From an uncultured Gammaproteobacteria bacterium (GTDB taxonomy: Bacteria > Patescibacteriota > Microgenomatia > Daviesbacterales > UBA10151): a stretch of 64,000 bases of DNA. Numbering within the stretch: position 1 is the stretch's first letter; each line of letters begins with the position of its first letter. The stretch spans positions 61,992 to 125,991 of the forward strand of contig CAZKCV010000001.1 of assembly GCA_964551605.1 (NCBI GenBank), in the 5' to 3' direction. Of this stretch, positions 2,254 through 64,000 are shown in pieces. The position numbers were made by a program, and so were the translations under genes. The notes under the pieces were generated by a model, which saw nothing but the letters and a program-made list of their open reading frames with translations, was not told the origin of the DNA and made no database searches.

Positions 2254-2610
2254 TTACTTAAGCTTAGAGGAGCAGGCCAGGCAATATTGGGCTGTCGGCA
2301 TAGCCCAAATCCTGCCGATTTCTATTTGTTTGTTGCATTTCTCGCATTTGCCGTAAACCCCGTTTTTGAGCTTAAACAGGGCTGCTTTAATGCTGGTCTT
2401 GGCCTTTTTAAGTTGCTGCTCCAATACTACTGTTTTAGCGTGCGTATCGGCAATGTAAGAATCAGTTCCCGGCTCGGAAGATTCTGCCAGGGAGGGACTT
2501 AGCACCGGATCGCCGTCGCTGACATCTTTGAGATTCTTATCAATCTCTTTTTCTTTTCTACGCAGTGTGTCCTTAATAAATTTAAGGGTTTTCTTGGGTA
2601 AACTTAACAT
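2254..2610 (-). CDS. DksA/TraR-family C4 zinc-finger protein
   Basis: C-x2-C-x17-C-x2-C motif (CEKCNKQIEIGRIWAMPTAQYCLAC) at the C-terminus, preceded by a coiled-coil region. Confidence 0.7.
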   Translation of the reverse strand: MLSLPKKTLKFIKDTLRRKEKEIDKNLKDVSDGDPVLSPSLAESSEPGTDSYIADTHAKTVVLEQQLKKAKTSIKAALFKLKNGVYGKCEKCNKQIEIGRIWAMPTAQYCLACSSKLK

Positions 2611-41293: not shown

Positions 41294-41294
41294 A

Positions 41295-46580: not shown

Positions 46581-48110
46581 GTGTATAAATACCTCATACT
46601 AACCTGTATTTTACTTTTCGGGCTTTTTTTAAGATTCGAAAATATTAAAGGGGCCAATATTGTTTTTGATTACGATCAAACAGAGGACCTTTTCTATACC
46701 TACAAAATAGCAGTGGACCTGGATTTCCCGATCATCGGCCGGGCCATCTACGGTGACCCCCGGCTTCACCATGGGGTATTTTATTATTACTACAATACCT
46801 TTCCTTTCTTAATTTCCGGCGGTAATCTTTTCACCAGTGCCTATTGGAACAGCCTCTTTAATGTAGCCACTTTATTTATCCTTTTTTTCTTAAGCCGGGC
46901 TATGTTTAAGAGTATCCGGCCCGGAATACTGACGGCAATTATTGTGGCTTCTTCTTTTGAATTTATTAAATTCTCCAATTGGTTAACTATTGATACGGTT
47001 ACAATTTTTACAGTCCCCCTATTTTACCTGGGGCTCTGGCTTCTTTTCCAAAAAAAGGGCTGGGGATTAATGCTTTCAGCCACTAGCTTAGGACTTTCCA
47101 TACAGGCAGACCTTACATTTTTATATCTTATCCCGGTCTTTATCATTTATTTACTTATATTCAAGCCGGGGTTTCCAAATTTGAAATTATTTTTATATTC
47201 TTTGATGGCGTTTATTGCCACAACCGCTACCCTAATCTTAACCGAAATCAAATTAAATTTTATCGGTGTTAAAACTTTATTAAATTTCTCAAATACATTC
47301 AGCGACACTAAGTTGCCGATTATGCAAAGACTGCAGCTTTTTTGGCAGGATTTTGGAATAAACTTTTCCCGCAATTTACTGCCTGACAGACCTGAGCTGG
47401 GTATCTATCTGGCCGCTATAGTAACTTTAGGGGCATTGTATTTTCTGCTTAAGCCTGATACTGCAAAACAGGAAAGATTTGCCATTTACTTTTTACTGTT
47501 ATATCTTTTCTCACCTGCTATTACCCTCTTGCTGGGATACCATCAAAAACCTTGGTTTTTAATCGGCTTGCCTCCTGCTATTGCGCTTATTTCCGGGTAT
47601 GTTATTTCCAAACTAAAATATTTACCTTTAATCCTATTGGTCATTTTAGTTATTATCTTCACTAATACCAATGTCGTCCTGAACAGGCCGCAGAAAGCCT
47701 ACCAGTTATTCGATTCAATATATGACTCTACTTCTTACCTTGACTACCAACTGGAGGTAATTGACTATACTTATAAAAACTCCGGCGGAAAGCCGTTTGA
47801 CATTAATGCCGTAACCTACCCGCTTTATTATAACGGGATGTGGGCATATCTTTATAACTGGTATGGCAGGAGTAAATTTGGTTATGTACCGGGTTGGCTG
47901 GGCGGAGACCAACTTCATCCTTATGATCTATTACCAAAGGCAAAACAAGAGTCTGAAATTTTCTATGTCCTGATTTCTGAAACCAGCAGGATACCGGAGG
48001 TTTTCAAAAATCAGGGTAAAAGCTGGGGAGACGACAAAGGTAGACTTATTGAAGAAAAAAATTTCCCTGGCTTTACTGTCAGAAAATATGCAAAATCACA
48101 GGCTATATAA
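46581..48110 (+). CDS. polytopic membrane glycosyltransferase (GT39/GT83, ArnT/PMT-like)
   Basis: More than 10 TM helices. N-terminal loop ...DYDQTEDLFYTYKIAVDLDFP... resembles the DE-motif loop of PMT/ArnT-family enzymes. Confidence 0.5.
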   Translation: MYKYLILTCILLFGLFLRFENIKGANIVFDYDQTEDLFYTYKIAVDLDFPIIGRAIYGDPRLHHGVFYYYYNTFPFLISGGNLFTSAYWNSLFNVATLFILFFLSRAMFKSIRPGILTAIIVASSFEFIKFSNWLTIDTVTIFTVPLFYLGLWLLFQKKGWGLMLSATSLGLSIQADLTFLYLIPVFIIYLLIFKPGFPNLKLFLYSLMAFIATTATLILTEIKLNFIGVKTLLNFSNTFSDTKLPIMQRLQLFWQDFGINFSRNLLPDRPELGIYLAAIVTLGALYFLLKPDTAKQERFAIYFLLLYLFSPAITLLLGYHQKPWFLIGLPPAIALISGYVISKLKYLPLILLVILVIIFTNTNVVLNRPQKAYQLFDSIYDSTSYLDYQLEVIDYTYKNSGGKPFDINAVTYPLYYNGMWAYLYNWYGRSKFGYVPGWLGGDQLHPYDLLPKAKQESEIFYVLISETSRIPEVFKNQGKSWGDDKGRLIEEKNFPGFTVRKYAKSQAI

Positions 48111-49663: not shown

Positions 49664-50779
49664 ATGGCCGATAACAAACAATCTATTACTTATTCAGAGG
49701 TTGGAGATGATTATGACACTAAGGATCCGATTAAAAAATTAGCCCAAACTGCTGCTGCCCAGACTGCGAAAAATTTAGCAAAACTTAATTATAAAGAAAT
49801 ATCAGACAGTCGCGGAGAATCGGCATTTGTTTGGCAAATCACCGAGAATACATTTATGGCCTCAGTCATTGAAGGCTTAGGAACAAAAAACCTCATTGCT
49901 GATGAGATGAGAGCAGTTACCGGGAAGACTTATTATGACATTATCGCCCACGATACCGTGGCTTCCATCATAAATGATCTTTCCTCCTCAGGCGCCAAAC
50001 CATTTGCCCTGTATGCATACTGGGCGATTGAGGATAATAGTTGGCTGCAAGACGAGCAGCGCATGAAGGATTTGATCCGAGGTTGGAAAGCTGCTTGTGA
50101 TCTCTCAGGAGTAACTTGGGGTGGCGGTGAAACGCCTACGCTCAAAGGAATTATTGAACCGGGGACCGTAGACCTGGCCGGATCAGCAATAGGAATTATA
50201 AACCAGGATAAAAGAAGAATAAGGGCAGAGAGACTGAAAAAGGGAGATCGAATTATTTTCTTAAAAAGCAACGGCATTAATGCAAACGGTGTTTCACTTG
50301 CCAGAGCGGTTTCTAAAGAATTACCAGAAGGATATGCAACAAAACTATCCGACAACACAATGTTTGGAGATGCCCTTCTGACAAAAACCAATATCTATGC
50401 AAACTTAATTCAAGACTTATTAGATCAGGATGTAGATATCCACTATATCTCCAACATTACAGGTCACGGACTCCGCAAGTTGATGCGTGCGCCGCAAAAT
50501 TTTATTTACGCAGTAGAAAAAGTGTACCCTGTATCAGAACTATTTTTGTTTATTCAAAAACAGGCAAATTTATCAGATAGTGAAATGTATGGAACATATA
50601 ACATGGGACAAGATTATGCCCTATTTTTACCGGCAGAAGATGTAAGAAAAGCAGAGGAAATTATTAAAGAAAATGGCTTTGAAAGTTTAGATGCAGGATA
50701 TTTAGAAGAGGGTGAAAGGAAAGTGGTTATTGAACCAAAAAATATTACCTTCGGGGGCGAAACTCTTTCACTGCGTTAA
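49664..50779 (+). CDS. purM: AIR-synthase-family protein, PurM-like (phosphoribosylformylglycinamidine cyclo-ligase candidate)
   Basis: SVIEGLGTKNLIAD resembles DGVGTK. IAHDTVASIINDLSSSGAKPFALYAYWA resembles GiDLVAMcVNDl..GAePLfFLDY. GGGETPTLKG resembles GGETAEMPG. Confidence 0.6.
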   Translation: MADNKQSITYSEVGDDYDTKDPIKKLAQTAAAQTAKNLAKLNYKEISDSRGESAFVWQITENTFMASVIEGLGTKNLIADEMRAVTGKTYYDIIAHDTVASIINDLSSSGAKPFALYAYWAIEDNSWLQDEQRMKDLIRGWKAACDLSGVTWGGGETPTLKGIIEPGTVDLAGSAIGIINQDKRRIRAERLKKGDRIIFLKSNGINANGVSLARAVSKELPEGYATKLSDNTMFGDALLTKTNIYANLIQDLLDQDVDIHYISNITGHGLRKLMRAPQNFIYAVEKVYPVSELFLFIQKQANLSDSEMYGTYNMGQDYALFLPAEDVRKAEEIIKENGFESLDAGYLEEGERKVVIEPKNITFGGETLSLR

Positions 50780-50799
50780 TCCTGAGCGGAGCCGAAGGG

Positions 50800-51780
50800 T
50801 TAGTTTCTTTCTTCTTTGTGGGACTTAGGAATTAATTTCTCAGATATTGAATCACCTTTATAAATACAATTTATAGCTTCTGCTAAAAGTTTAGCAACAG
50901 AAATTACAACAAACTTAGGATTTTCCAAAACTTCTTTTCTAAGCGGCACTGTATCTGTAATAAAAATTTTTTCAAGAGGCGAATCATTAATCCTTTTTAA
51001 TGCCGGGTCAGAAAAAAGTCCATGTGTCGCAGCAGCCGAAACACTTTTGGCTCCCCTCTTCTTAATTAATCTGGCTGCTTCACAGATGGTTCCGGCAGTA
51101 TCAATCATATCATCTACCAATAATACATCTTTGCCTTTGACATCACCGATCATGTCCAAAACCTTGCTTTCATTTTTCTTCATCACATCCCTTTCCTTAA
51201 AAACAATGGCTACCCCTTCTGCATTTAGTAAATCTGCATAAAATGCAGCCTTTAATACACCGCCTTTATCTGGTGAGGCTATGACTAAATTTGAACTAAA
51301 GACTTTTTTAAGTTCCGGGAGAAAAGAATAACTACTGTAGAGATTATCCCAGGGGATTTCCACAAAGCCCGGTTCCTGTTCGCTGTGGATATCCACAGTC
51401 AAAATTCTATCAGCTCCGGAAAATTCAATTAGTCTGGCAATTAAAGAAGCTGAGATTGGCACCCGGGGCCTGTCTTTACGGTCCTGCCGGGAATAACCAA
51501 AATAAGGAATGATGGCTGAAACCTCCGAAGCGGAAGACCTTTTTGCTGCATCTATAATTAAAAGCAATTCCATTATATTAGCATCTACCGGCGGACAAGT
51601 TGGTTGGATAATAAAAACATCTCTTTTCCTTAAATTCTCGGGGATAACAATTCTTTTCTCGCCGTCTGCAAAAACAGTGACAGTTTCATCCGCATCTTTA
51701 CCTAAATTTTTGGCAATTTCTTTGGCTAATTTTAAGTTGGCAGTTCCTGTCAGTAGTACAAAACCGTTATCGTTAGCCAT
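50800..51780 (-). CDS. prs: ribose-phosphate pyrophosphokinase
   Basis: PRPP-binding loop VLLVDDMIDTAGTICEAARLI. N-terminal FVLLTGTANLKLAKEIAKNLG. Confidence 0.9.
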   Translation of the reverse strand: MANDNGFVLLTGTANLKLAKEIAKNLGKDADETVTVFADGEKRIVIPENLRKRDVFIIQPTCPPVDANIMELLLIIDAAKRSSASEVSAIIPYFGYSRQDRKDRPRVPISASLIARLIEFSGADRILTVDIHSEQEPGFVEIPWDNLYSSYSFLPELKKVFSSNLVIASPDKGGVLKAAFYADLLNAEGVAIVFKERDVMKKNESKVLDMIGDVKGKDVLLVDDMIDTAGTICEAARLIKKRGAKSVSAAATHGLFSDPALKRINDSPLEKIFITDTVPLRKEVLENPKFVVISVAKLLAEAINCIYKGDSISEKLIPKSHKEERN

Positions 51781-51961: not shown

Positions 51962-51999
51962 TTAGGCCGATCGGTCTATTTGTCTAAAGTTAGAGATTC
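51962..51999. promoter_or_regulatory. direct-repeat copy (operator-like) between the PaaX-like paralogue and the prs start
   Basis: ttaggccgatcggtctatttgtctaaagttagagattc. Partner at 52525-52562 (ttgggccgatcgtcaagtttgactaaagtcagatattc) contains palindromes GTCAAnnTTGAC and TGACTnnAGTCA. Confidence 0.5.
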
Positions 52000-52499
52000 T
52001 AAGCTACATCAGTACCAACCACTACCCTCACCCAATCAGACAAACCAACCTCTTTAATAAAATTCCGCAAGGGACTTGTTACATCCTTTTTACCGGCCCA
52101 GACACTTTTCTGCCAAGGCTCAAACTCCCACTCCCTAAATTTACTCCGCAAGATTTTTCTTAATTTCCGGTGCTTTTCCGGGATATCAAAAATGACAATC
52201 CTCCACTTCCCATCCCATTTATCCTCTGCTAAAAGCTTTTTTATTATTGCTTCCTCCCTACCTCTATCTGTTAATTTCAACATAATTTTCCCACCGTCTT
52301 TTTTGGTTTCAATAAAACCTTTTTCACGCAAATCCCTAACCGCTTGATAAAGAGCTCCGTAATTTATTTCTCTTGGATCTCGTCCCGGATAAACATACCA
52401 GTGGGAGTTGTAGGCAAAATCAATTAGCAAAACACCACTCTGAATCGATTTCTCCAAACCAAGAAGCAAAAAATAACTTAATGAATTTTTCTTAATCAT
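51999..52499 (-). CDS. PaaX-like transcriptional regulator (paralogue of 9219-9713)
   Basis: WDGKWRIVIFDIPEKHRKLRKILRSKFREWEFEPWQKSVWAG. N-terminal wHTH. Confidence 0.6.
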   Translation of the reverse strand: MIKKNSLSYFLLLGLEKSIQSGVLLIDFAYNSHWYVYPGRDPREINYGALYQAVRDLREKGFIETKKDGGKIMLKLTDRGREEAIIKKLLAEDKWDGKWRIVIFDIPEKHRKLRKILRSKFREWEFEPWQKSVWAGKKDVTSPLRNFIKEVGLSDWVRVVVGTDVA

Positions 52500-52588: not shown

Positions 52589-53143
52589 ATGAAACCAGGA
52601 ACAATTGTTTATACAGGTAAATCAAAGTCAAGAAAAGAGATAGTTTTCCGCTATCCTAATAAAAATGACCTAAGATCTTTATGGGAATACATTAATAAGA
52701 TCTCTAAAGAGAAAACCTTTATTACTTTTCAGGGGGAAGAAATGACTTTGGAAGGAGAAAATAAGTGGCTGGAAGGAGAACTTAAAAAAATTGCTGAGGG
52801 AAAAGCTGTTCAACTATTGGTTTTTTCTGATAATAAACTAATTGGTGTTTCCGGAATTACTATGAAAGAAAGAGCGGAAAAGCATGTTGGCATTTTTGGC
52901 ATTACTATAGCAAAGAGGTTCCGAGATGACGGCATTGGAGCGCTTCTAATGGAAACTGTTTTAAAAGAGGCAAAGAAAAATCTCAAAGACTTAAAGATTG
53001 TTACCTTAGGAGTTTTTGGCAACAACGCTGTTGCTCAGAAATTATATAAGAAAATGGGTTTTATTGAATATGGGAACTTACCAAAAGGAGCTATCCACAA
53101 TGGCGTCCCTGTTGATCATGTCTACATGTACAAAGAAGTTTAG
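52589..53143 (+). CDS. GNAT-family N-acetyltransferase
   Basis: Acetyl-CoA motif A region RFRDDGIGALLMETVLKEAKK ... LYKKMGF. Confidence 0.7.
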   Translation: MKPGTIVYTGKSKSRKEIVFRYPNKNDLRSLWEYINKISKEKTFITFQGEEMTLEGENKWLEGELKKIAEGKAVQLLVFSDNKLIGVSGITMKERAEKHVGIFGITIAKRFRDDGIGALLMETVLKEAKKNLKDLKIVTLGVFGNNAVAQKLYKKMGFIEYGNLPKGAIHNGVPVDHVYMYKEV

Positions 53144-54132
53144 ACTACCTCTTTCAGATTATTTTTAATTCTAAGATCTACATTTTTTAATAGATCCGGC
53201 ACAAATTTTTTGCCGGTGATTTTTTCGTAAATCCCCATATAAAGCATACTCATTTTAGCAATAAATTCAGGCGGCATTTTGGGAATCTTACCCTTTCCGG
53301 TGAATCCATGTTCTTTGAACCAAATTCTTAAAGGTTCTTTATCATAGCTTTCCGGTTCTTTGCCGGATAAGAATCTTTTATAGTAGGTTTTTTTAATCCA
53401 GTATCTGGAGGAGTCTGGAGTGTGAATTTCATCAACTAAAATTAGTTTTCCATTAAGACCGTTAGGTCGCAAGCTCTGCTTATCATCCAAACCAAATTCA
53501 TACTTGGTATCTACTAAAATAATTCCTGCTTTATCACAAATTTTTTGCCCTCTTTCAAAAAGAGCTAAAGCTGCTTTTTTCATCTGCTTCCAGATTAAGG
53601 GTGACGCAATCTTTTTTTTAATAATATCTTCTTCCGTTAATCTTTCATCATGTCCGGCTTCTGCCTTGGTGGTAGGCGTAATCACCGGCTTAGGCAGCTT
53701 TTGATTTTTCTTTAAACCTTCCGGAAATTTAATACCATAAATTATTCTCTCCCCTTTTTCATACGAACCCCAGATCGACGTATCCGTCACCCCAGTAATA
53801 TAACCCCTCACAACCATTTCAATCGGAATAACCTTACAGTTTTTAACCACCATCACATTGGGATCCGGGACAGACAGCAGATGATTTTGAATAATATCTG
53901 AAGTTTGCTTAAACCAAAACTCTGAAAGACGCGTCAATACCTGGCCTTTAAAGGGAATCAGTCCCAAAACTCTGTCAAAAGCAGACTGGCGATCTGTAGT
54001 AATTATTATCCGTTTTTCTTTTAAGGCATAACTGTCACGCACTTTACCCTGGTGCTTTTTTTCAAGATTGGGAAGGTTTACGGTTTTAAGGGCAAGGGGA
54101 ATATTTTCAATAACTTTTTGCTTACTGATCAT
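53140..54132 (-). CDS. purC: phosphoribosylaminoimidazole-succinocarboxamide synthase (long form)
   Basis: GKVRDSY, IPIEMVVRGYITGV, LVDTKYEFG blocks. Confidence 0.85.
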   Translation of the reverse strand: MISKQKVIENIPLALKTVNLPNLEKKHQGKVRDSYALKEKRIIITTDRQSAFDRVLGLIPFKGQVLTRLSEFWFKQTSDIIQNHLLSVPDPNVMVVKNCKVIPIEMVVRGYITGVTDTSIWGSYEKGERIIYGIKFPEGLKKNQKLPKPVITPTTKAEAGHDERLTEEDIIKKKIASPLIWKQMKKAALALFERGQKICDKAGIILVDTKYEFGLDDKQSLRPNGLNGKLILVDEIHTPDSSRYWIKKTYYKRFLSGKEPESYDKEPLRIWFKEHGFTGKGKIPKMPPEFIAKMSMLYMGIYEKITGKKFVPDLLKNVDLRIKNNLKEVV

Positions 54133-54610
54133 TTTCTATCTTTTGGGCTTTTTCTTCGACACCAGCTGCTAAATTATTTTTATATTCCGCTAACTTTTCT
54201 TCCAAACTTTTATCGGAAGTCGCCAAAATCTGCACTGCCAAAAGACCGGCGTTTTTAGCACCATTTATAGCAACTGTGGCTACCGGAATTCCCGGAGGCA
54301 TCTGCATAGTAGAAGCTAATGCATCTACTCCACTTAAGACCCCACTTTCCAACGGCACCCCGATAACCGGTAGCGGGAAACGGGCTGCAATTACACCGGC
54401 CAAATGGGCTGCCATTCCAGCTCCGGCAATTATTACTTTTATGCCACGGGTACTGGCATCTATTACTAACTCCTCTGTCCTATCAGGTGACCTATGGGCA
54501 GAAGAGATTGTCAGGTCATATTCCACACCGAAATCTTCCAGCACTTTTGCAGCTTCTTTCATTACCGGCAAATCAGAATCTGAACCAGTAATAATTAGAA
54601 CTTTTTTCAT
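54122..54610 (-). CDS. purE: AIR carboxylase catalytic subunit / N5-CAIR mutase (PurE)
   Basis: VLIITGSDSDLPVMKEAAKVLEDFGVEYDLTISSAHRSP ... IIAGAGMAAHLAG. No purK nearby, so the class is undetermined. Confidence 0.9.
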   Translation of the reverse strand: MKKVLIITGSDSDLPVMKEAAKVLEDFGVEYDLTISSAHRSPDRTEELVIDASTRGIKVIIAGAGMAAHLAGVIAARFPLPVIGVPLESGVLSGVDALASTMQMPPGIPVATVAINGAKNAGLLAVQILATSDKSLEEKLAEYKNNLAAGVEEKAQKIENDQ

Positions 54611-56001
54611 AATGTTATTTTCTTAATTTGTTCTGCTAATGTCAACGCTTTTTCGCTGGCACAACCAATATGATTTTTGGCATCCAGCAGCTGCACTATT
54701 TCAATTGGCTTTAAGTATTGCCCGATGACAGGATTTTCCGACATTAAATCTTCCATGGGATTTACATTACCTTCCTGAATGGATTCCCAGGCTTTCATGG
54801 AAATCTCCCTTAATTCCTCATGCATTTTTTGCCTGTCTGCTCCCCTTTTAACTGCTTCTAAAATCACACTTTCTGTAGCCGAAAAAGGCCAGTAAGTTTC
54901 CAGATTCTTCTTAATTTTTCTCTCATTAATAATGAGGCCATCCAGAATATTAATAGAAGAATTTAGTATCTCATCAACAGCCAGAAATATTTCCGGAAGC
55001 ATTACTCTTCTACTGGCTGAATCATCTAATGTTCTTTCCAGCAATATATAGGCGGCATTATCCCAACTAATCTTCGATAAATGAGCTACCAATCTGGCCA
55101 ATGAACAGATCTGTTCAGATTTTACGGGATTTTTCTTAAACGGCATAGCTGAGGAGCCGACTTGGGATTTTCCGAAAGGTTCCTGCCACTCACCAAATCC
55201 CGGTGATTGCATAATCCTTAGATCAAAAGCAAATTTATTTAAAGATTGGGCTATTCCTGCCAGCACATTACCAACTAACACTTCAATTTTCCGGGGAGCA
55301 GTTTGGTTGGTAATTTCAAATGCTTCTATGCTTAATTCCTTAAGTACCGAAGCCTCCATTTCGTTTGCCTTTTTATTATCCGATAACTTTACATAACTTG
55401 CTGCTGTTCCCACGGCCCCCTTTAAACCCTTACTTTTTAAGTTCTTTTTTACAAATCGCAGGAGTTCCAAATCCAGCAGTAAATCCTGGGCATAAAAGGC
55501 AAATCTATAGCCTAAAGTTGTAGGCTCTGCCGGCTGAAGGTGCGTATAACCCATACACACAAAATCTGCATATTGGTTAATCTTTTTCCCAAATATTTTT
55601 AGCAAGTTTATCAGTTGCTTCTCTATAATGGAAAGCGCTTCAGTAATCCTGATGGTTTCAGCATTGTCTGAAACATCCATACTGGTAGCACCTAAGTGAA
55701 TTTTCCCTCCGCCTACTTTAGCTTTTTCAGCAAACTCTTTTATAGCTGCTACCACATCATGTCGGGTATCTTTTTCAATCTCCCAAATTCTTTCAATGTC
55801 TATTTCATCCTGATGCTTTTTTAAATCTGCTAACTCTTCCTCTGAAACTAAGCCTTCTTTAGCCTGCGCTTCTGCTAAAGCTACCCAGACTTTTCTCCAT
55901 AATCTGTATTTGTTTTCTTCAGAAAAAATCTGCCGCATCTTTTCGGACCCGTAACGCCAGGAAAATGGTGATTGGTAGGTTGAAAAATTAATGTTTTTCA
56001 T
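54607..56001 (-). CDS. purB: adenylosuccinate lyase
   Basis: Fumarate-lyase signature GSSAMPFKKNPVKSE. Confidence 0.85.
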   Translation of the reverse strand: MKNINFSTYQSPFSWRYGSEKMRQIFSEENKYRLWRKVWVALAEAQAKEGLVSEEELADLKKHQDEIDIERIWEIEKDTRHDVVAAIKEFAEKAKVGGGKIHLGATSMDVSDNAETIRITEALSIIEKQLINLLKIFGKKINQYADFVCMGYTHLQPAEPTTLGYRFAFYAQDLLLDLELLRFVKKNLKSKGLKGAVGTAASYVKLSDNKKANEMEASVLKELSIEAFEITNQTAPRKIEVLVGNVLAGIAQSLNKFAFDLRIMQSPGFGEWQEPFGKSQVGSSAMPFKKNPVKSEQICSLARLVAHLSKISWDNAAYILLERTLDDSASRRVMLPEIFLAVDEILNSSINILDGLIINERKIKKNLETYWPFSATESVILEAVKRGADRQKMHEELREISMKAWESIQEGNVNPMEDLMSENPVIGQYLKPIEIVQLLDAKNHIGCASEKALTLAEQIKKITL

Positions 56002-56040: not shown

Positions 56041-57576
56041 TTAATGTCTAAAAGCCCTCCTGCCGGTAAAGACCATTGGTATACCGGCTTTATCAGCTGC
56101 GTCAATTGAGGCCTGATCATTTACAGAACCCCCCTGCTCCAGTATATCTCCGATCCCGCATTTTGCCGACATCTCCACGGAATCTTCAAAAGGAAAGAAA
56201 CTATCACTTACTAATATACCACCCCTTGCTGATTTTCCTGCTTGTTCCAATGCGATTTTAGTAGCACCTACCCGGGATGTTTGACCGGAACCAATTCCCC
56301 GGGTCATCGGGATATCTTTATCAATTACAATGACAGCATTGGATCTGACTGCCTTAACTGCCTTAAAACCAAATTTCATCTGTTCCAGTTGTTTCGCAGT
56401 CGGTTTTTTCTTGGTTACAACTTTCCAATCCTTAAAACTCTTTTCTACATCGTCATCAAAATCCTGAAGCAGAACTGCTCCGGCAAAGTATTTCAAATCC
56501 CAGTTTTCGCTTCTTCTAATTTCTATCGGTCCGAAGGTGTAAACTCCCATGCTCTTTCTGACTTTCTTCAAAAGCTCTAAAGCATCTTCAGAAATTGAAG
56601 GTACTGCCACTATATCAGTATTTCCCTCCCGTTCATTTTTAAAAGTGGCAATATTTTTTGCAGCTTTTAAATCCATGTGTTTATTTAATACGACTACTCC
56701 GCCAAAGGCTGAAACCGGATCTGCTTCAGTAGCCCGGTACAATGCTTCATATGCATCTTTGCCGGTTGCAATCCCACAAGGGCTTAAATGTTTTATTACA
56801 GCAGCAGCCGGTTCCTTAAATTGCCTGACTGTTTCCAGTCCGGCATGAATATCACCAATGTTAGTGCCACTTAGCTCCCTGCCCCAGAGATGTTTTAATT
56901 TAGAAAAAGGAGAATTTGTTTTTGGCATCAGGTATAAAGCTCCCTCCTGATGTGGATTTTCACCGTAACGGAGGACATTAGTCTTCCGAAGAGGAACTGT
57001 TAACTCTTTCGGAAACTTCTCTTCCGAGAAAAAGTTACCGATTTGGGAATCATAAAATGACAGATGATAAAACGCTTTAGCTGCCATCTTTTGTCTTAAT
57101 TCCTTTGATACTTTTGATACCTTAACTGCCTTTGATACTTCTTCATAATCTTTGGGGGTTACTACCACTAAGACATTCTCATAATTTTTAGCCGCTGCCC
57201 TAATCATGGTTGGCCCCCCGACATCTATTGTTTCGATACCGGGTTTTTCTTCAAAAGGGTAAAGATTACAAACCACGATATCAATTTGCGGCATCCCCAA
57301 TTTCCGGGCCTCTTTTACATGCTTGGGGTTTTTTCTGTCAAACAAAATTCCTGACTCAATCTGGAAACTGATGGTTTTCATCCGGCCGTCAAATGCGTCC
57401 CGGGGGTTTCCGGTGATTTCATCAATGGGAATAACTTTTATGCCTTCTTTTTTTAATAACTCGAAAGTCCCGCCGGTAGAAATAATTGCATAACCTGCTT
57501 TTTCCAAAACTTTTGCAAAATCAGCTATTCCGCTTTTATCATAAACGCTAACTAATGCAAATTTTTGAGAGCTCAT
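56041..57576 (-). CDS. purH: bifunctional AICAR transformylase / IMP cyclohydrolase
   Basis: MGS-like N-domain ALVSVYDKSGIADFAKVLEKAGYAIISTGGT and AICARFT C-domain, 511 aa. Confidence 0.9.
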   Translation of the reverse strand: MSSQKFALVSVYDKSGIADFAKVLEKAGYAIISTGGTFELLKKEGIKVIPIDEITGNPRDAFDGRMKTISFQIESGILFDRKNPKHVKEARKLGMPQIDIVVCNLYPFEEKPGIETIDVGGPTMIRAAAKNYENVLVVVTPKDYEEVSKAVKVSKVSKELRQKMAAKAFYHLSFYDSQIGNFFSEEKFPKELTVPLRKTNVLRYGENPHQEGALYLMPKTNSPFSKLKHLWGRELSGTNIGDIHAGLETVRQFKEPAAAVIKHLSPCGIATGKDAYEALYRATEADPVSAFGGVVVLNKHMDLKAAKNIATFKNEREGNTDIVAVPSISEDALELLKKVRKSMGVYTFGPIEIRRSENWDLKYFAGAVLLQDFDDDVEKSFKDWKVVTKKKPTAKQLEQMKFGFKAVKAVRSNAVIVIDKDIPMTRGIGSGQTSRVGATKIALEQAGKSARGGILVSDSFFPFEDSVEMSAKCGIGDILEQGGSVNDQASIDAADKAGIPMVFTGRRAFRH

Positions 57577-58664
57577 GTTAGTATTTTATTTAATTTCCCC
57601 TTTTCTATTGCTTCTTTTATTTCCAAAGCTACCCGTTTTCCCATTGAGATATTTTCTCCATATAAATACATACCATAAGGGGTGGCAAAAATACCAGGGG
57701 ATCCGGGCATCCGGGGAGATACATCAAAAACAATGATCTCCTTTTTAGGTGGGCCGGCAGTAATCATAGTTTGCAGACCAAAGGGGCCAATCACACCAGG
57801 AGCAACCATTTTCTGAGAAGCCTGTACAAATCTTTCTCCCATTGCAAATGCATCTTCAAGTAAAGATTCCAGAACAGTCACTGCAATATGTCCGGCTTCT
57901 TCATACTTTATTCTTCCACCCATGTCCCGGAATTGCTGCTGGTATTCTGGAGATAATTTCGAAAGTCCTTCATGGTTAGTCTGGCGCCGTGTATCGGTAC
58001 CAATTAATTCCAGTCGCTGATTAATTGGATCATAAAAGAAATTAAAGTTAACTTGCACTCCAACGATAAACTCTTCAATAACAGCGTGTTTTAAATGTTC
58101 CTCTGTAATTTCCCCTTTTCCAATTCTTTCCTCTATTTTTTTCTCATATTCCTTAAAATTATTAACTAAGAAAAATGCCCTTTCAAAACCTCTTTCTTTT
58201 TCCAGAACTTTTACAATACAAAGCCTGTCTATATCTTTAGGATCTTTAAATTGTTTGGGGTAGCGGATTTTGGCAGCATCCAATAAATCATATTGATTTG
58301 GTTTTACACCCCGCTCTTCAGCTTTAAGCAAAAACCTGTTTCCAAACATCGGCACTTTAAATTTTTTCTCAATGGCGTTGTAATCATTAATGTAAACTTC
58401 AAATGACCTGTGGGGAATAAAAATAGAATTTCTCTTCAATAATTCTTGTTGGACTTTTTCACTGAGTATCTCTTTGAATTCATCCAATATAATTACTTCA
58501 TCTACACAACCTAATTGGCCTTCAGACGCGTAATATTTTTTGTATGTTTTCTCTCTGCCCTTTTTACAAATAACTAATGTCTTAAATCCTAAATCCTTTG
58601 CGCCGCGGCACACATCTAAGGCAGAATGACTTCCTAAAACGGCAATTGTATACTGTTTGCCCAT
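57573..58664 (-). CDS. purP: PurP-family ATP-grasp protein (archaeal-type FAICAR synthetase paralogue)
   Basis: YTIAVLGSHSALDVCRGAKDLGF, PHRSFEVY, NFFYDPI. Paralogue of the adjacent gene. Confidence 0.75.
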   Translation of the reverse strand: MGKQYTIAVLGSHSALDVCRGAKDLGFKTLVICKKGREKTYKKYYASEGQLGCVDEVIILDEFKEILSEKVQQELLKRNSIFIPHRSFEVYINDYNAIEKKFKVPMFGNRFLLKAEERGVKPNQYDLLDAAKIRYPKQFKDPKDIDRLCIVKVLEKERGFERAFFLVNNFKEYEKKIEERIGKGEITEEHLKHAVIEEFIVGVQVNFNFFYDPINQRLELIGTDTRRQTNHEGLSKLSPEYQQQFRDMGGRIKYEEAGHIAVTVLESLLEDAFAMGERFVQASQKMVAPGVIGPFGLQTMITAGPPKKEIIVFDVSPRMPGSPGIFATPYGMYLYGENISMGKRVALEIKEAIEKGKLNKILT

Positions 58665-59683
58665 TAGTCCAGCACCTCTTTTAGTTTATTCATTTTTATC
58701 GCATCCTTAATCTCTTTTGCAATACGTCTTCCGGTTGACATTGGTTCATCATAATTTAAATAAGTATAAGGCGAGCCATTAATAAAACAATTAGTTCCTG
58801 CTACAATTCTGGCAGAAATTTCTATCACATAAATTTCTTCAGTTGAGGTAATAATGGCTTCTAAACAAAAAGGGCCAAAAAGACCCTTAGTTGATATAAG
58901 CTTTTGGGAACTCTTAACTACCCGTTCAGCCATAGCCACAGCTTCTGCTAAAAGGGATTCCCTGATAGCCATTGGGATATTAGCTACCACTTCAAAAGAA
59001 GGCTCTATATTTAAACCTCTCTGGTTTTTGGCAGGAATCCTGCCAAGGGAATCAACATTTGTTTCATAGCGTTTATCAATACTCATGATCTCCACTCTTT
59101 TGGTTAAAGGAGAATAGAAGAAATGAAAATATACCGGCACTCCGATGACATATTCCTGGACGATAAATCTTTCTTCACTGTAGTTTTTTAACTTCTCATC
59201 AAACTCTTTTTGGTTTCTGGCAGTAAAATAACCCTTACCCCCGGAAGCACCATAAGACTTTACAATTACCGGGCGGTCAATCTTATCGCCTCTTTTAAAG
59301 CGATGCGGCACTTTAATCCCTGATTCCTCCATCCAGGTCCTCTGCATCTTGCGGTTTTCCTCCCAATCCAAAACTTTCTTGTTGCCAAAATACAAAGCAT
59401 TCATATTTTTATTTTGGTCCAGCCCTAAGTAAGCTACAAATGAGCCATGAGGAATAATAATTGCATTTTTCTTGATAAGTTGTTTTTCAAGAGATGGAAA
59501 ATTTTTCCAGGAGTCGATTTCTAAAACTTCATCAATAAAATTACTGTAGGAATTGTAAAGAGTGAATCGATCCGGTGTGGCTACTACTGCAGTTTTAAAA
59601 CCCTCGTCTTTTGCCCCTTTAAGAATTTGCAGGGCGGAGTGAGAACCTAAAGTGACAATGGTATAGTCTTTTATAATTCCCAT
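58664..59683 (-). CDS. purP: 5-formaminoimidazole-4-carboxamide ribonucleotide synthetase PurP (archaeal-type, formate/ATP-dependent)
   Basis: YTIVTLGSHSALQILKGAKDEGF, PHGSFVAYLG, FHFFYSPL, MSIDKRYETNVDSLGRIPAKNQ and GPFCLEAI align along the full length with the M. jannaschii PurP sequence as recalled. Confidence 0.85.
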   Translation of the reverse strand: MGIIKDYTIVTLGSHSALQILKGAKDEGFKTAVVATPDRFTLYNSYSNFIDEVLEIDSWKNFPSLEKQLIKKNAIIIPHGSFVAYLGLDQNKNMNALYFGNKKVLDWEENRKMQRTWMEESGIKVPHRFKRGDKIDRPVIVKSYGASGGKGYFTARNQKEFDEKLKNYSEERFIVQEYVIGVPVYFHFFYSPLTKRVEIMSIDKRYETNVDSLGRIPAKNQRGLNIEPSFEVVANIPMAIRESLLAEAVAMAERVVKSSQKLISTKGLFGPFCLEAIITSTEEIYVIEISARIVAGTNCFINGSPYTYLNYDEPMSTGRRIAKEIKDAIKMNKLKEVLD

Positions 59684-59685: not shown

Positions 59686-61014
<1,329 letters not shown>

Positions 61015-61016: not shown

Positions 61017-62549
61017 TTATTCCCACTCCATAGTGGCTGGGGGTTTGTTGGTAATGTCGTAAACTACCCTGTTAACTTCTTTTACCTCATTTACAATTCT
61101 GGTTGATATTTTTTCCAAAACATCATATGGCAACTTGGCAAAATTGGCAGACATGGCATCAGTTGCTTCAATAGCCCTAATTGCAATGGTCTCTCCATAA
61201 AACCGCTGGTCACCTCTTACTCCGGTGGTTTTAATGCCGGTAAAGACTGCAAAGAATTGCCAGAGTTTTTTATCTAATCCGGCTTTTTCAATTTCTTCCA
61301 GGACAATTTTATCCGCTCTTCTTAAGATGCTTAATTTTTCTTCCGTTACCTCACCTATAATTCTAACTGCAAGGGCCGGGCCGGGAAAAGGCTGCCGGGC
61401 TATAATCTCATCAGGCAATCCTAAGATGCTGCCAATTTTCCTGACTTCATCTTTATAGAAATTTCGCAGTGGTTCAACCAGCACTAAATTCATATCTTCC
61501 GGGAGTCCTCCGACATTATGATGTGATTTTATCTTCTGTGAATGTTTGCTGCCGGCAGACTCTATCACATCCGGATAAATGGTTCCCTGCACCAAAAATT
61601 TGGCATTAATTTTTTTTGCTTCTTTCTCAAACACTTCTATAAAAGTTTTACCGATTACTTTTCTCTTTTCCTCCGGGTCCACAACTCCTTTTAAGGCTTT
61701 CAAAAAATCTTGTCTGGCATCGACAATATCCACATTCATTTTGTATTTGTTTCGGAAAACTTCCCGCAAAGTTTCTGTCTCACCTTCACGCATTAACCCG
61801 GAGTCAACATAAACAGAAGTTAAATTTTTGCCAATAGCTTTGTGTACCAACAATGCGGCCACTGAGGAATCTACTCCGCCGGACAGGGCACATACAGCTT
61901 TTTCATTCCCTACAGAATCCTTGATATCTTTGATAAGATTTTCTACAAACGCGTTGTTAATTTCCTGTTTCGTAATTTCAATACCACAAATCTCTAAAAA
62001 GTTTTTTAAAAGCTGCTCACCAAACTCGGTATGTACCACTTCCGGATGAAATTGAATACCAAAAAGTTTTTTATTTTTATTTTCAATAATGGCATGTGGG
62101 ATTGTTTCAGTTTTACCTAAAGTTTCAAATCCTTCCGGAATTTTTATTACCTGATCTCCATGACTCATCCATGCAGTAAATTTTTCTGGAATATCTTTCA
62201 ACAACTGTACCCTGTACCCTGTACCCTGTACCCTAACTTCTGCTGGTCCGTATTCTCTTTTTCGTCCGGCTACCACTTCTCCTTCTAACAAATGACACAT
62301 CAATTGTTGTCCGTAACAAATTCCTAAAACCGGAATTCCTAACTTAAATATTTCCGGATCTATTGTAGGTGACTCTTTTTCAAAAACAGCCGCCGGCCCG
62401 CCTGATAAAATTATTCCCTGTGGTTTTACTTCGCTAACCTTCTGCATGGCAGATTCCGGAATGGTAATTACCACATCGGATCCCAATTCTCGGAGTCTCC
62501 TGAATATCAGATGTGTTGTTTGTGACCCAAAATCAATTAATAAAATCAT
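61017..62549 (-). CDS. guaA: GMP synthase (glutamine-hydrolysing)
   Basis: GATase domain GICYGQQLM. PP-loop SGGVDSSV. Contains (gtaccct)x4 at 62207-62234 encoding VRVQGTGYRVQ. Convergent with purA, 2-bp gap. Confidence 0.9.
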   Translation of the reverse strand: MILLIDFGSQTTHLIFRRLRELGSDVVITIPESAMQKVSEVKPQGIILSGGPAAVFEKESPTIDPEIFKLGIPVLGICYGQQLMCHLLEGEVVAGRKREYGPAEVRVQGTGYRVQLLKDIPEKFTAWMSHGDQVIKIPEGFETLGKTETIPHAIIENKNKKLFGIQFHPEVVHTEFGEQLLKNFLEICGIEITKQEINNAFVENLIKDIKDSVGNEKAVCALSGGVDSSVAALLVHKAIGKNLTSVYVDSGLMREGETETLREVFRNKYKMNVDIVDARQDFLKALKGVVDPEEKRKVIGKTFIEVFEKEAKKINAKFLVQGTIYPDVIESAGSKHSQKIKSHHNVGGLPEDMNLVLVEPLRNFYKDEVRKIGSILGLPDEIIARQPFPGPALAVRIIGEVTEEKLSILRRADKIVLEEIEKAGLDKKLWQFFAVFTGIKTTGVRGDQRFYGETIAIRAIEATDAMSANFAKLPYDVLEKISTRIVNEVKEVNRVVYDITNKPPATMEWE

Positions 62550-63328
62550 CTACTATTCTCCTTCGCGAATTTCACTATGTTTTCAAATAACGGCAAACCA
62601 TCCACTTTCACTGTACCACGTCTCCAGTTAGGATGCTGCTGTTTTCTGATAAAACATTCCGGATGCGGCATCATCCCTAAAATCCTGCCGGTAGTATCAG
62701 TAATTCCGACTATGGCATTTGAGGAACCGTTCGGATTATCCGGATAACTTTGAGTGGAATTTCCCTTTTCATCAACATACCTAAAAGCAACCAGATTTTG
62801 ATCTTCAACTTCTTTTAATGTCTTCTCATCCGTCAGGAATTTTCCTTCACCATGTGCTATAGGCAACCACATTAAACTATCCATACCATTTAGGAATTTG
62901 CTGTTGTTTTTTTTGTTAACTTTAACTTTTATCCACCGACATTCAAAATGTCCGGAATCATTATTGGTTAAAGTGACATCCATTTCGCCGATCTTCCTAA
63001 AAGGCAAAAGCCCAGTTCTGACTAAAACCTGAAACCCATTACAAACCCCGATAATGGCCGTATCTTTTCTTTCAATAAACTTTCTCATTTCCTGACCCAG
63101 GAAGGAGGTTAATTCTATGGCCAGGATCTTTCCGGAAACAATGTCATCTCCGTAAGCAAATCCGCCCGGTAATGCCAGAATCTGATAATCACTCATTTTT
63201 TCTGATCCATTTCTAAGTTCGTTTACATGAACTATCTTCGGATCAGCCCCGGCAACCTTAAAAGCATAAGCCATCTCGGCATCCCGGTTTGTCCCATCAG
63301 CTTTTAATACCAACACCTTAGGCTTCAT
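62546..63328 (-). CDS. purQ: phosphoribosylformylglycinamidine synthase, glutaminase subunit PurQ
   Basis: ILALPGGFAYGDD, GVCNGFQVL, MPHPE class-I GATase motifs. Confidence 0.8.
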   Translation of the reverse strand: MKPKVLVLKADGTNRDAEMAYAFKVAGADPKIVHVNELRNGSEKMSDYQILALPGGFAYGDDIVSGKILAIELTSFLGQEMRKFIERKDTAIIGVCNGFQVLVRTGLLPFRKIGEMDVTLTNNDSGHFECRWIKVKVNKKNNSKFLNGMDSLMWLPIAHGEGKFLTDEKTLKEVEDQNLVAFRYVDEKGNSTQSYPDNPNGSSNAIVGITDTTGRILGMMPHPECFIRKQQHPNWRRGTVKVDGLPLFENIVKFAKENSR

Positions 63329-64000
63329 GAAAATAACCTCCTCATTGGCTCCTGCCAGGCTTTCTTTAAATTACTTATATCTGCACTAAATATTTTCTTT
63401 ACTTCAATAATTTGATTTATTTGAGTATTTCCTAAAATCTTAAACGGAATATTCTTGAAAAGTTGTTTTGCCGTACTTTCATTTTCTACTTCCGCAATAA
63501 AGCAGCCGGCTGTTTCATTAAACAAGAATAAATCCGGACGTTCCACCTCGAAGGAGTCAAAGCCCACCTTCGAGGTGTCTAAGACTACCCCCATTCCCCC
63601 GCCTACACACATCTCAAAAATAGCCCCGATTACTCCGCCTTCTGAAACATCATGACATGACATAATTTTTCCACTCTGAATCCCTTTGTAGATTACATCA
63701 AAAGTTTTCGGCAAAATTTTCAAATCAACTTTCGGAACACTGGATCCCAAAATTCCGTTAATATCATAATAAGTTGACCCACCTAAACTTTTATCCATTT
63801 TTCCGACCAAAACAATTGTTGAACTATTACTTTTAAAATCTGCGGTAACTGTTTTTGTAGCATCCGGAATTCTTCCTAAAACCGATATACAAAGTACCGG
63901 CGGGATTTTAATTACTTGTCCGCTTTTACTCCTGTAAGTGGAAGACAGACTGTCTTTACCGGAAATCACCGGAAGTTTAAAAACTCTCATGAAATCCACC
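63325..64000 (-). CDS. purL: phosphoribosylformylglycinamidine synthase PurL, 3' portion (gene runs past the window end)
   Basis: C-terminal PurM-like half with HDVSEGGVIGAIFEM. The ORF is open at the window edge. Confidence 0.7.
   Translation of the reverse strand, partial: VDFMRVFKLPVISGKDSLSSTYRSKSGQVIKIPPVLCISVLGRIPDATKTVTADFKSNSSTIVLVGKMDKSLGGSTYYDINGILGSSVPKVDLKILPKTFDVIYKGIQSGKIMSCHDVSEGGVIGAIFEMCVGGGMGVVLDTSKVGFDSFEVERPDLFLFNETAGCFIAEVENESTAKQLFKNIPFKILGNTQINQIIEVKKIFSADISNLKKAWQEPMRRLFS

What the first reader, a model, noticed from the sequence alone, without database searches (positions are those of the whole stretch)
56041..59683. Two tandem archaeal-type purP paralogues sit next to a complete bacterial bifunctional purH
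58664-59683 aligns end-to-end with archaeal PurP (FAICAR synthetase using formate + ATP; LGSHSALQILKGAKDEGF, FHFFYSPL, GPFCLEAI). 57573-58664 is a diverged paralogue. Both lie immediately upstream of a canonical 511-aa PurH whose AICAR-transformylase domain does the same step using 10-formyl-THF. Carrying both routes, plus a duplicated PurP, suggests either folate limitation or horizontal acquisition from archaea. One paralogue may have a different substrate, as proposed for archaeal PurP duplicates.
Basis: partly seen in the sequence, partly recalled or inferred. Interest (0 to 1): 0.6.

Follow-up and report, generated by a model that had tools for sequence, protein, structure and literature searches.

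The report
Archaeal-type PurP gene pair in bacteria
A tiny groundwater-type bacterium (Candidatus Daviesbacteria) carries, inside its purine-synthesis operon and beside a normal PurH, the two-gene "PurP" pair so far described only in archaea. The pair is shared by its whole bacterial group rather than being a recent import, and what the two proteins do together is still unproven.

Summary
58664-59683 (A, 339 aa) and 57573-58664 (B, 363 aa) are both full-length PurP-family ATP-grasp proteins (Pfam DUF1246+DUF1297). They lie directly upstream of an intact 511-aa PurH, with overlapping stop and start codons.

They are not a recent tandem duplicate. By published diagnostics, A is the cluster Ib / "PurP II" type (Asn258, Gly-rich loop; closest to P. 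furiosus PF1517). B is the cluster II / "PurP III" type (His258, loop two residues longer ending in ERAFF). These two types always co-occur in archaea, and neither P. furiosus protein was active alone.

The host is a Daviesbacteria (Patescibacteria/CPR). The best 80 species genomes holding a B relative are all Microgenomates-group. Every locus with enough flank also carries A, in the same order, inside the pur cluster. A and B are the most conserved proteins of that cluster, and their base composition is native.

Close relatives also encode PurN (fused to PurD), FolD and PurK, so neither absence of folate nor PurK replacement explains the pair.

Best reading: an anciently acquired, vertically kept two-subunit formate/ATP-dependent AICAR formylase that runs alongside folate-dependent PurH. 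This mechanism is inferred, not shown. It is a new bacterial member of a known kind, of moderate interest.

The parts
59689..59717 (-). Sigma-70-type promoter TTGACA-17-TATAAT (12 of 12 matches). The -10 hexamer ends 5 nt before the ATG of purP-A, so the operon mRNA may be leaderless.
   Evidence: Consensus scan and sequence. The same architecture, at the same 5-nt distance, is present in most Daviesbacteria-type loci. Function as a promoter is inferred.
58664..59683 (-). purP-A: PurP family, cluster Ib / 'PurP II' type (339 aa)
   Evidence: DUF1246+DUF1297. Best solved relative is PF1517 (2r84), 348 bits. His27, Ser94, Asn258, Ser266 and Arg314 are all kept, and the loop is GASGGKG. It scores 472 bits against a type-I profile and 255 against a type-II profile.
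57573..58664 (-). purP-B: PurP family, cluster II / 'PurP III' type (363 aa). Its start overlaps the stop of A (TAATG).
   Evidence: DUF1246+DUF1297. Position 258 is His, and the loop 'LEKERGFERAFF' is two residues longer and lacks the glycines. It scores 476 bits against the type-II profile and 313 against type-I. The AF2 model (pLDDT 85) superposes on MjPurP with TM 0.86-0.88. Junction sequence.
56041..57576 (-). purH: bifunctional IMP cyclohydrolase / AICAR formyltransferase (511 aa). Its start overlaps the stop of B (ATGA).
   Evidence: Pfam MGS + AICARFT_IMPCHas. NF002049 529.7 bits, above the cutoff of 402. Catalytic motifs kept. Junction sequence.
54607..56001 (-). purB (adenylosuccinate lyase), same operon
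   Evidence: TIGR00928 408.7 bits, above the cutoff of 326
54122..54610 (-). purE, class I (N5-CAIR mutase), same operon
   Evidence: TIGR01162 198 bits, above the cutoff of 150. SAHR and AGMAAHL motifs are in the sequence.
53140..54132 (-). purC (SAICAR synthetase), last gene of the operon
   Evidence: NF009251 407 bits, above the cutoff of 371
59737..61014 (+). purA (adenylosuccinate synthase), transcribed divergently from purP-A
   Evidence: NF002223 571 bits, above the cutoff of 402
61017..63999 (-). guaA, purQ and the 3' part of purL (the rest of the pur cluster; it runs off the window end)
   Evidence: NCBIfam hits. In relative L001 a purN-purD fusion lies upstream of purL.
49664..51780 (.). 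purM (49664-50779, +) and prs (50800-51780, -), the outlying members of the cluster
   Evidence: Pfam AIRS/AIRS_C and Pribosyltran_N/Pribosyl_synth. TIGR00878 is the best hit for purM.

Best explanation
**What it is.** The two genes are the bacterial counterparts of the archaeal PurP cluster Ib (PurP II) and cluster II (PurP III) proteins. They form a two-gene module that is always inherited together. In this Daviesbacteria genome they are the first two genes of a translationally coupled operon: purP-A, purP-B, purH, purB, purE, purC.

**Most likely mechanism (inferred).**
- A and B act together, probably as a hetero-oligomer built from trimers of each type.
- Together they work as an ATP-grasp ligase that activates formate to formyl phosphate and formylates the 5-amino group of AICAR, giving FAICAR.
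- The IMP-cyclohydrolase domain of PurH, encoded immediately downstream, then closes FAICAR to IMP.
- This gives a folate-independent, ATP-driven route that runs in parallel with the 10-formyl-THF-dependent transformylase domain of the same PurH.

**Shown versus inferred.** Shown: family and subtype membership, operon structure, lineage-wide conservation, and co-occurrence. Inferred: the reaction, the need for both subunits, and the physiological reason for keeping two routes.
For: **Family and subtype**
-.
- A keeps all five substrate-contact residues of MjPurP.
- B keeps four of them, with N258H. In cluster II as a whole, the ATP-grasp residues remain invariant: K152, E197/E198, N206, Q298, D314, R318, plus E161-R162 in the loop. 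B therefore looks like a working enzyme rather than a decayed copy.

**Operon**
- The junctions are a 1-nt and a 4-nt overlap.
- A single strong promoter lies upstream of A.

**Co-inheritance**
- All Microgenomates-group loci with enough flank carry both genes, on the same strand, in A-then-B order, inside the pur cluster. A was missing only in L068 and L080, where B lies close to the contig end.

**Selection**
- A and B are the most conserved proteins of the cluster in the more distant Microgenomates. In Daviesbacteria, A ranks first and B matches purH.
- Daviesbacteria loci: A 83.9%, B 77.0%, purH 77.7%, purB 73.8%, purE 73.1%, purC 71.5%.
- Other Microgenomates: A 60.3%, B 65.3%, purB 57.8%.

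**Literature**
- Cluster Ib and cluster II always co-occur in archaea.
- PF1517 and PF0421 were each inactive alone, although PF1517 binds ATP and AICAR.
- S. solfataricus has only this pair, and its extracts incorporate formate when converting AICAR to IMP.
- A II+III hetero-hexamer has been proposed.
- Sources: PMC3261824 and PMC6486802.
- Methanosarcinales have the same set: purH + Ib + II + purN.
Against: - No activity has ever been shown for any cluster Ib or cluster II protein, singly or together.
- No heteromer has been demonstrated, and I could not model one.
- The organism appears able to do the same step with PurH. The AICARFT motifs are intact, and in Daviesbacteria that domain is even more conserved than IMPCH. 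Relatives also have PurN and FolD. A second route therefore looks redundant, and that redundancy hints the pair might do something else.
- In about a third of Microgenomates loci A and B are separated by purA and/or purH, so tight translational coupling is not universal.
- No A-B fusion protein appeared among the 150 listed family representatives.
Confidence: 0.5

Rival explanations
1. A alone is the formate-dependent FAICAR synthetase. B is a separate enzyme (or regulator) of purine metabolism that acts on a different aminoimidazole ribotide or uses a different one-carbon donor, as the reader suggested for archaeal duplicates.
For: A keeps every MjPurP contact residue. B changes the carboxamide-contacting Asn258 to His and replaces the Gly-rich ATP loop with a longer, strongly conserved ERAFF loop. 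NCBI does not name B as the ligase. In many loci A and B are separated by other pur genes.
Against: PF1517, the closest characterised relative of A, was inactive alone despite a conserved active site (PMC6486802). The strict co-occurrence of the two types in archaea and in all bacterial loci examined is easier to explain by mutual dependence. No pathway step is obviously left vacant for B.
Confidence: 0.2
2. The pair does not formylate AICAR at all. One member supplies a different pathway function, for example an N5-CAIR synthetase (PurK-like, bicarbonate instead of formate) or the 'missing' archaeal IMP cyclohydrolase.
For: The chemistry is analogous: an acyl phosphate attacks the 5-amino group of an aminoimidazole ribotide. 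PurE here is class I (TIGR01162), and no purK lies in this window's cluster. Brown 2011 raised the cyclohydrolase idea. Apparent redundancy with an intact PurH would be explained.
Against: A bona fide purK (TIGR01161, 427 bits, above the cutoff of 318) sits in the pur cluster of 16 Microgenomates loci that also carry both A and B. Sulfolobus has a functional PurK plus the pair (PMC3261824). The pair also co-occurs with IMPCH domains here, in Archaeoglobi and in Methanosarcinales. His27 and Arg314, the formyl contacts, are invariant in both types.
Confidence: 0.12
3. The genes are a recent horizontal import from an archaeon, or an archaeal fragment mis-binned or mis-assembled into a bacterial contig.
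For: The family was described as archaea-only (PMC6486802). The closest solved structures are archaeal.
Against: The stop and start codons overlap with bacterial purH. A bacterial-type promoter is conserved across relatives. GC and GC3 lie within about 1-1.4 sd of the window's genes. The same arrangement occurs in 80 independent species-level assemblies of Daviesbacteria, Curtissbacteria, Levybacteria, Roizmanbacteria, Woesebacteria and Gottesmanbacteria. The bacterial A sequences group together, and the CPR B sequences form a clade with 81% bootstrap support.
Confidence: 0.02

Closest known systems
Pyrococcus furiosus PF1517 (PurP cluster Ib / 'PurP II'; PDB 2R84-2R87)
   Same: This is the best solved match of A: 348 bits, aligned over residues 9-338. 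It has the same Asn258, the same Gly-rich loop, and the same His27, Ser94, Ser266 and Arg314. It is also encoded alongside a cluster II partner.
   Different: It comes from a hyperthermophilic archaeon that has no PurH or PurO. The first loop residue is K there, but S or A in Daviesbacteria. PF1517 had no detectable FAICAR synthetase activity in vitro (PMC6486802).
Archaeal PurP cluster II / 'PurP III' (e.g. P. furiosus PF0421)
   Same: B shows both published diagnostics of this cluster: His at position 258, and a loop two residues longer with only one glycine left (PMC3261824). It always accompanies a cluster I gene. An archaeal-context relative (P0241, locus L085) is 50% identical to B and sits adjacent to a type-I copy.
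   Different: I had no PF0421 sequence to compare directly. No structure or activity exists for any member. In the archaeal locus L085 the gene order is II then I, whereas in bacteria it is I then II.
Methanocaldococcus jannaschii PurP MJ0136 (cluster Ia; PDB 2R7K-2R7N), the only PurP with demonstrated activity
   Same: Same fold and domain pair. B's model superposes with TM 0.86-0.88. The formyl-contacting His27 and Arg314 are conserved in both A and B.
   Different: MJ0136 works as a single gene product with PurO. Here there are two diverged subunits plus PurH. Neither A nor B belongs to cluster Ia.
Methanosarcinales purine gene set (full-length purH + cluster Ib + cluster II purP + purN)
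   Same: The same apparently redundant combination of a folate-dependent and a PurP-type route occurs in one genome (PMC3261824).
   Different: Those are archaea. Here the genes form one bacterial operon with overlapping reading frames, and PurN is fused to PurD.

Membership tests
PurP family (ATP-grasp FAICAR synthetase family, Pfam DUF1246 + DUF1297) | N-terminal DUF1246 and C-terminal DUF1297 domains over the full length | tested here: met
   Both A and B hit both domains, with E-values from 1e-40 to 1e-66
PurP family (ATP-grasp FAICAR synthetase family, Pfam DUF1246 + DUF1297) | Formyl-contacting His27 and Arg314, and AICAR-phosphate contacts Ser94 and Ser266 (M. jannaschii numbering) | tested here: met
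   H, S, S and R are present in both A and B. The features are listed in PMC3261824.
PurP family (ATP-grasp FAICAR synthetase family, Pfam DUF1246 + DUF1297) | PurP three-dimensional fold | tested here: met
   For B: AF2 model with pLDDT 85; Foldseek top hits are 2r7m, 2r7l and 2r7k with TM 0.86-0.88 and rmsd 2.3 Å. For A: full-length sequence alignment only.
PurP family (ATP-grasp FAICAR synthetase family, Pfam DUF1246 + DUF1297) | NCBIfam equivalog score for formate--phosphoribosylaminoimidazolecarboxamide ligase | tested here: not met
   A scores 395.8 against a cutoff of 580. B scores 292.2 against a cutoff of 556. These cutoffs are narrow clade-specific models.
PurP family (ATP-grasp FAICAR synthetase family, Pfam DUF1246 + DUF1297) | Catalysis of AICAR + formate + ATP -> FAICAR + ADP + Pi | not testable with these tools
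   Needs an enzyme assay. Only MJ0136 has been shown active (PMC6486802).
PurP cluster Ia/Ib (PurP I/II) | Asn at position 258 and a (K/R)GG(K/R)G loop | tested here: met
   A has Asn258 and the loop S-G-G-K-G, where the first residue is S rather than K/R. B fails both features.
PurP cluster II (PurP III) | His at position 258, plus a loop two residues longer that lacks the glycines | tested here: met
   B has His258 and the loop 'LEKERGFERAFF', compared with 'PGARGGRGYF' in MjPurP. It scores 476 bits against the type-II profile and 313 against type-I.
PurP cluster II (PurP III) | Always accompanied by a cluster Ib gene in the same genome | tested here: met
   The window itself shows this, as do all Microgenomates-group loci with enough flank and loci L085-L088.
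Bifunctional PurH (IMPCH + AICARFT) | MGS-like IMPCH domain plus AICARFT domain, with the catalytic Lys-His and the GQxxR and DxFFPF motifs | tested here: met
   NF002049 scores above its cutoff. Motifs. TIGR00355 is below its cutoff (453 vs 528).
PurK (N5-CAIR synthetase), considered for B | Match to the PurK equivalog, and absence of another PurK where B is present | tested here: not met
   B gives no PurK hit. A true PurK co-occurs with A and B in 16 loci.

The most novel reading that the evidence does not exclude
The cluster Ib + cluster II PurP pair is an obligate two-component enzyme. Its real chemistry differs from MjPurP: for example, B activates a one-carbon donor other than free formate, or the pair carries AICAR through to IMP. 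Its presence as the best-conserved module of the pur operon across Microgenomates, and in Eremiobacterota, shows that this 'archaeal signature' system is an old feature shared across domains. That would give mesophilic bacterial proteins with which the 18-year-old question of what PurP II and PurP III do could finally be answered.
Probability: 0.2. Interest if true: 0.65.

Novelty: new member of a known kind. Interest (0 to 1): 0.4.

Why it matters
**What is new**
- PurP has been treated as an archaeal signature. A survey of 1,403 complete genomes stated that it occurs only in Archaea (PMC6486802).
- Here the complete PurP II + PurP III pair is a conserved, strongly constrained part of the purine operon across a major CPR class. 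It also occurs in Eremiobacterota (Vulcanimicrobiaceae).
- This changes the evolutionary picture of the last steps of purine synthesis.
- It also shows that some ultra-small bacteria keep a full de novo purine pathway, and one that is doubled at the AICAR formylation step.

**The open question it helps with**
- The function of the II/III pair has been open since 2008. Both P. furiosus proteins were inactive when assayed singly.
- The bacterial operon, with overlapping frames feeding straight into purH, is a clean argument that the two act together on the AICAR-to-IMP segment.
- It also offers non-thermophilic proteins for co-expression tests.

**Limits**
- The genes are already auto-annotated in public databases.
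- No new protein family or chemistry is demonstrated here.

Tried and rejected
1. **Recent HGT or a chimeric contig.** Rejected on native GC/GC3, frame overlaps with purH, and identical synteny in dozens of independent assemblies.
2. **Recent tandem duplication.** Rejected. A and B are 35% identical and fall on opposite sides of the type I/II split, which has 100% bootstrap support.
3. **B as a decayed pseudo-enzyme.** Rejected. B is as conserved as PurH, and cluster II keeps the ATP-grasp and formyl-contact residues invariant.
4. **B as a PurK substitute.** Prompted by the class I PurE and the absence of purK in this cluster. Rejected because true PurK co-occurs with A+B in 16 loci and in Sulfolobus.
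5. **PurH's transformylase being degenerate, so that PurP replaces it.** Rejected. The catalytic motifs are intact in both PurH lineages of Microgenomates.
6. **Total folate independence.** Rejected. PurN-PurD fusions and FolD lie in relatives' pur clusters.
7. **Things that led nowhere.**
   - Exact-sequence look-ups of A and of P0121 found nothing on record.
   - The listing of cluster members gave no organism names.
   - The first, broad alignment was too diverse for the genome scan.
   - The Zhang 2008 paper is not held.
   - No paper in the library links PurP with Patescibacteria or CPR.
   - No folate, formate or purT genes were found among the 40 other window proteins scanned.


Full report
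**1. Observation**

The minus strand between 53140 and 59683 carries six closely packed ORFs.

- A lies at 58664-59683 (339 aa) and B at 57573-58664 (363 aa). Each matches both Pfam PurP domains, DUF1246 and DUF1297, with E-values between 1e-40 and 1e-66.
- A aligns over its full length with the solved structures of P. furiosus PF1517 (3.1e-103) and M. jannaschii PurP (2.3e-85). B aligns best with M. jannaschii PurP (2.8e-66).
- A and B are 35% identical.
- The next ORF, 56041-57576, is a full-length PurH. It has MGS/IMPCH plus AICARFT domains and passes the NCBIfam equivalog NF002049 with 529.7 bits against a cutoff of 402.
- The flanking genes are purB, class I purE, purC, purA, guaA, purQ and purL, with purM and prs a little further away.

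**2. Host and commonness of the genes**

- The window encodes ordinary bacterial housekeeping proteins: DnaB, a class-I release factor, HisRS, Lgt and YchF.
- Each of A and B has more than 100 listed homologues at 74-99% identity. Those that carry an organism name are Candidatus Daviesbacteria, Microgenomates or 'Patescibacteria group'.
- I scanned one genome per GTDB species with a cluster-II alignment.
- The best 80 hits (61-84% identity) are all Microgenomates-group CPR by title or by gene order: Daviesbacteria, Curtissbacteria, Levybacteria, Roizmanbacteria, Woesebacteria and Gottesmanbacteria. Many records titled 'uncultured Gammaproteobacteria bacterium', and one titled Limnocylindrales, carry the same gene order.
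- GC and GC3 of A and B lie within about 1-1.4 sd of the window's other genes and resemble the neighbouring pur genes.

This is a lineage-wide trait, not a peculiarity of this genome.

**3. What the two copies are**

Three studies of archaeal PurP divide the family as follows (Zhang 2008 as summarised in PMC6486802; Brown 2011, PMC3261824; Cruz 2019, PMC6486802):

| Group | Example | Known activity |
|---|---|---|
| Cluster Ia (PurP I) | M. jannaschii MJ0136 | The only member shown to be active |
| Cluster Ib (PurP II) | P. furiosus PF1517 | None detected in vitro |
| Cluster II (PurP III) | P. furiosus PF0421 | None detected in vitro |
| PurP IV | Thermococcus | Not assayed |

Ib and II occur together in the same 61 archaeal genomes. 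Neither PF1517 nor PF0421 showed FAICAR synthetase activity in vitro.

Brown et al. give two diagnostics that correlate perfectly. Cluster I has Asn258 and a (K/R)GG(K/R)G loop. Cluster II has His258 and a loop two residues longer with the glycines lost.

| Feature | A | B |
|---|---|---|
| Position 258 | Asn | His |
| Loop | ...GASGGKGYF | ...LEKERGFERAFF, two residues longer |
| His27, Ser94, Ser266, Arg314 | Kept | Kept |
| Score against type-I profile | 472 bits | 313 bits |
| Score against type-II profile | 255 bits | 476 bits |

The profiles were built from non-bacterial representatives.

In a neighbour-joining tree of 115 sequences the Asn258 clade has 100% bootstrap support and contains A, PF1517 and MjPurP. 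B lies among the His258 sequences.

The pair is therefore the ancient Ib+II (PurP II+III) module, not a recent duplication.

**4. B appears catalytically competent**

- Across 22 diverse cluster II sequences the following are invariant: H13, K152, E161-R162, N206, R226, H259, E266-S267, Q298, D314 and R318. These include the ATP-grasp lysine and the probable metal ligands. I assign those roles from general knowledge of ATP-grasp enzymes.
- An AlphaFold2 model of B (pLDDT 85, pTM 0.85) superposes on M. jannaschii PurP with TM 0.86-0.88 and rmsd 2.3 Å. More distant ATP-grasp enzymes follow far behind.
- No cluster II structure exists in the PDB.

**5. Operon anatomy**

- The stop codon of A overlaps the start of B (TAATG). 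The stop codon of B overlaps the start of purH (ATGA).
- A perfect TTGACA-17-TATAAT lies upstream of A, and its -10 hexamer ends 5 nt before the ATG.
- That geometry recurs in most Daviesbacteria-type loci, which suggests a leaderless operon transcript.

**6. Comparative context**

- In every Microgenomates-group locus with enough flank, A and B are both present, on the same strand, in A-then-B order, and inside the pur cluster. Only L068 and L080, where B lies close to the contig end, lack a detectable A.
- About 47 of 79 pairs are adjacent or overlapping. In the rest, purA and/or purH lies between them.
- A and B are the best-conserved proteins of the cluster in the more distant Microgenomates. 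In Daviesbacteria, A ranks first and B is on a par with purH.
- Close relatives carry a PurN-PurD fusion that keeps the NTHP and DFGP motifs.
- Two loci have FolD in the cluster, and 16 loci have a bona fide PurK.
- PurH occurs in the cluster in two sequence lineages. Both keep the transformylase catalytic motifs.
- In roughly 35 loci no purH lies within 8 kb. I could not check the rest of those genomes.

Outside CPR, I found four relevant loci:

| Locus | Context | What it carries |
|---|---|---|
| L085 | Archaeal (PolB, Pus10, split GuaA) | Adjacent type II + type I pair; B-type 50% identical to B |
| L086 | Eremiobacterota (relatives named Vulcanimicrobiaceae) | The pair in a pur cluster |
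| L087 | Not identified | The pair in a pur cluster |
| L088 | Not identified | PurH together with the pair |

The CPR B sequences form a clade with 81% bootstrap support. Bacterial A sequences group together, with PF1517-like sequences further out. This fits one old acquisition of the pair, or inheritance, followed by vertical descent. My trees cannot orient or date that event.

**7. Mechanism**

The best-supported reading is that A and B work together as a formate- and ATP-dependent AICAR formyltransferase. Its product would be cyclised by the IMPCH domain encoded immediately downstream. The arguments are:

- strict co-inheritance and coupling of the two genes;
- conservation of the formyl and AICAR-phosphate contacts in both proteins;
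- the inactivity of each archaeal homologue alone, even though PF1517 binds ATP and AICAR;
- formate incorporation into IMP by extracts of S. solfataricus, which has only this pair;
- the published hetero-hexamer proposal.

Why an intact folate-dependent route is kept in parallel is unexplained. The same situation exists in Methanosarcinales. Two possibilities are that an ATP-driven, irreversible route helps when scavenged folate is scarce, or when formate is plentiful. Both are speculation.

The rivals are that A acts alone and B has a different substrate, or that the pair has another function altogether. Neither can be excluded. The PurK-substitute version is contradicted by co-occurrence with true PurK.

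**8. Novelty**

- The literature in the held library describes PurP as archaea-only.
- No paper links it with Patescibacteria or CPR.
- Public databases nevertheless already auto-annotate these proteins.
- The finding is a new bacterial member of a known but functionally unresolved two-gene system.
- Its value is evolutionary: an 'archaeal signature' that is widespread in two bacterial phyla.
- It is also practical: a clean operon context and mesophilic proteins for resolving what PurP II and PurP III do.
- I score interest at 0.4.

Noticed in passing
window 59689-59717 (-), and upstream of purP-A in loci L001-L037: A perfect TTGACA-17-TATAAT has its -10 hexamer ending exactly 5 nt before the ATG, with no Shine-Dalgarno sequence. 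The same spacing is conserved in most Daviesbacteria-type loci, along with a conserved spacer 'tttgGTAGTCTatt'. Many other Microgenomates have TATAAT or TAAAAT 5-6 nt before the start. This suggests a leaderless pur-operon mRNA and possibly an operator in the spacer.
   Followed up: partly
window 56041-57576 (PurH residues ~62-77) and PurH of loci L008-L081: The IMP-cyclohydrolase motif, usually 'GRVKTLHPxIHGG', reads 'GRMKTISFQIESG' here and in both PurH lineages of Microgenomates. The Arg, Lys and Thr are kept, but 'LHP...H' is lost. This looks like a lineage-specific change in a normally invariant motif.
   Followed up: partly
L039, L051, L053, L054, L060, L062, L067, L070, L081 (purH between purP-A and purP-B): A second PurH lineage, in the Levybacteria-type gene order, is inserted between A and B. 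Its IMPCH domain is 50-59% identical to the window's PurH, but its AICARFT domain is only 31-37% identical. All catalytic motifs are nevertheless kept.
   Followed up: partly
L001 1-1858; L043, L057, L059, L061, L063-L066, L072 (~900-3200): PurN (folate-dependent GAR transformylase) is fused to PurD in many Microgenomates pur clusters. Compared with E. coli PurN, as I recall that sequence, the PurN part seems to have about 35 extra residues between the NTHP and DFGP motifs.
   Followed up: partly
L086 6853-8004 and L001 7590-8660: Two conserved-position ORFs inside pur clusters have no Pfam or NCBIfam match. One (383 aa) lies between the two PurP genes in Eremiobacterota. The other (356 aa) lies between guaA and purA in a close Daviesbacteria relative and is absent from the window.
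   Followed up: partly
window 40517-41389 (-) and 39609-40520 (-): A baeRF family 10 protein (a bacterial archaeo-eukaryotic release-factor-like domain) overlaps by 4 nt with an upstream 303-aa ORF that has no family match.
   Followed up: no
window 33022-34341 (-): A TreT-type trehalose synthase (TreT_GT1 + Glycos_transf_1). As far as I recall, this enzyme type is best known from hyperthermophilic archaea and Thermotogae. It may be another archaeal-flavoured gene in this small genome.
   Followed up: no
window 51999-52499 (-): A small PadR-like/PaaX_M (Cas2-like domain) putative regulator sits between the pur operon (purC) and prs. It could be a regulator of the cluster. A different gene occupies this position in relative L001.
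   Followed up: no
window 46581-48110 (+), 45924-46526 (+), 25954-27087 (-), 22873-24659 (-): Several sizeable ORFs (200-509 aa) have no Pfam match at E<=1e-3.
   Followed up: no
loci L012-L081 (record titles): Dozens of GTDB representative MAGs are titled 'uncultured Gammaproteobacteria bacterium' (binchicken co-assemblies), and one is titled 'Limnocylindrales'. They carry Microgenomates-type pur clusters 62-81% identical to this window in purP-B. The record titles are therefore not reliable taxonomy.
   Followed up: partly
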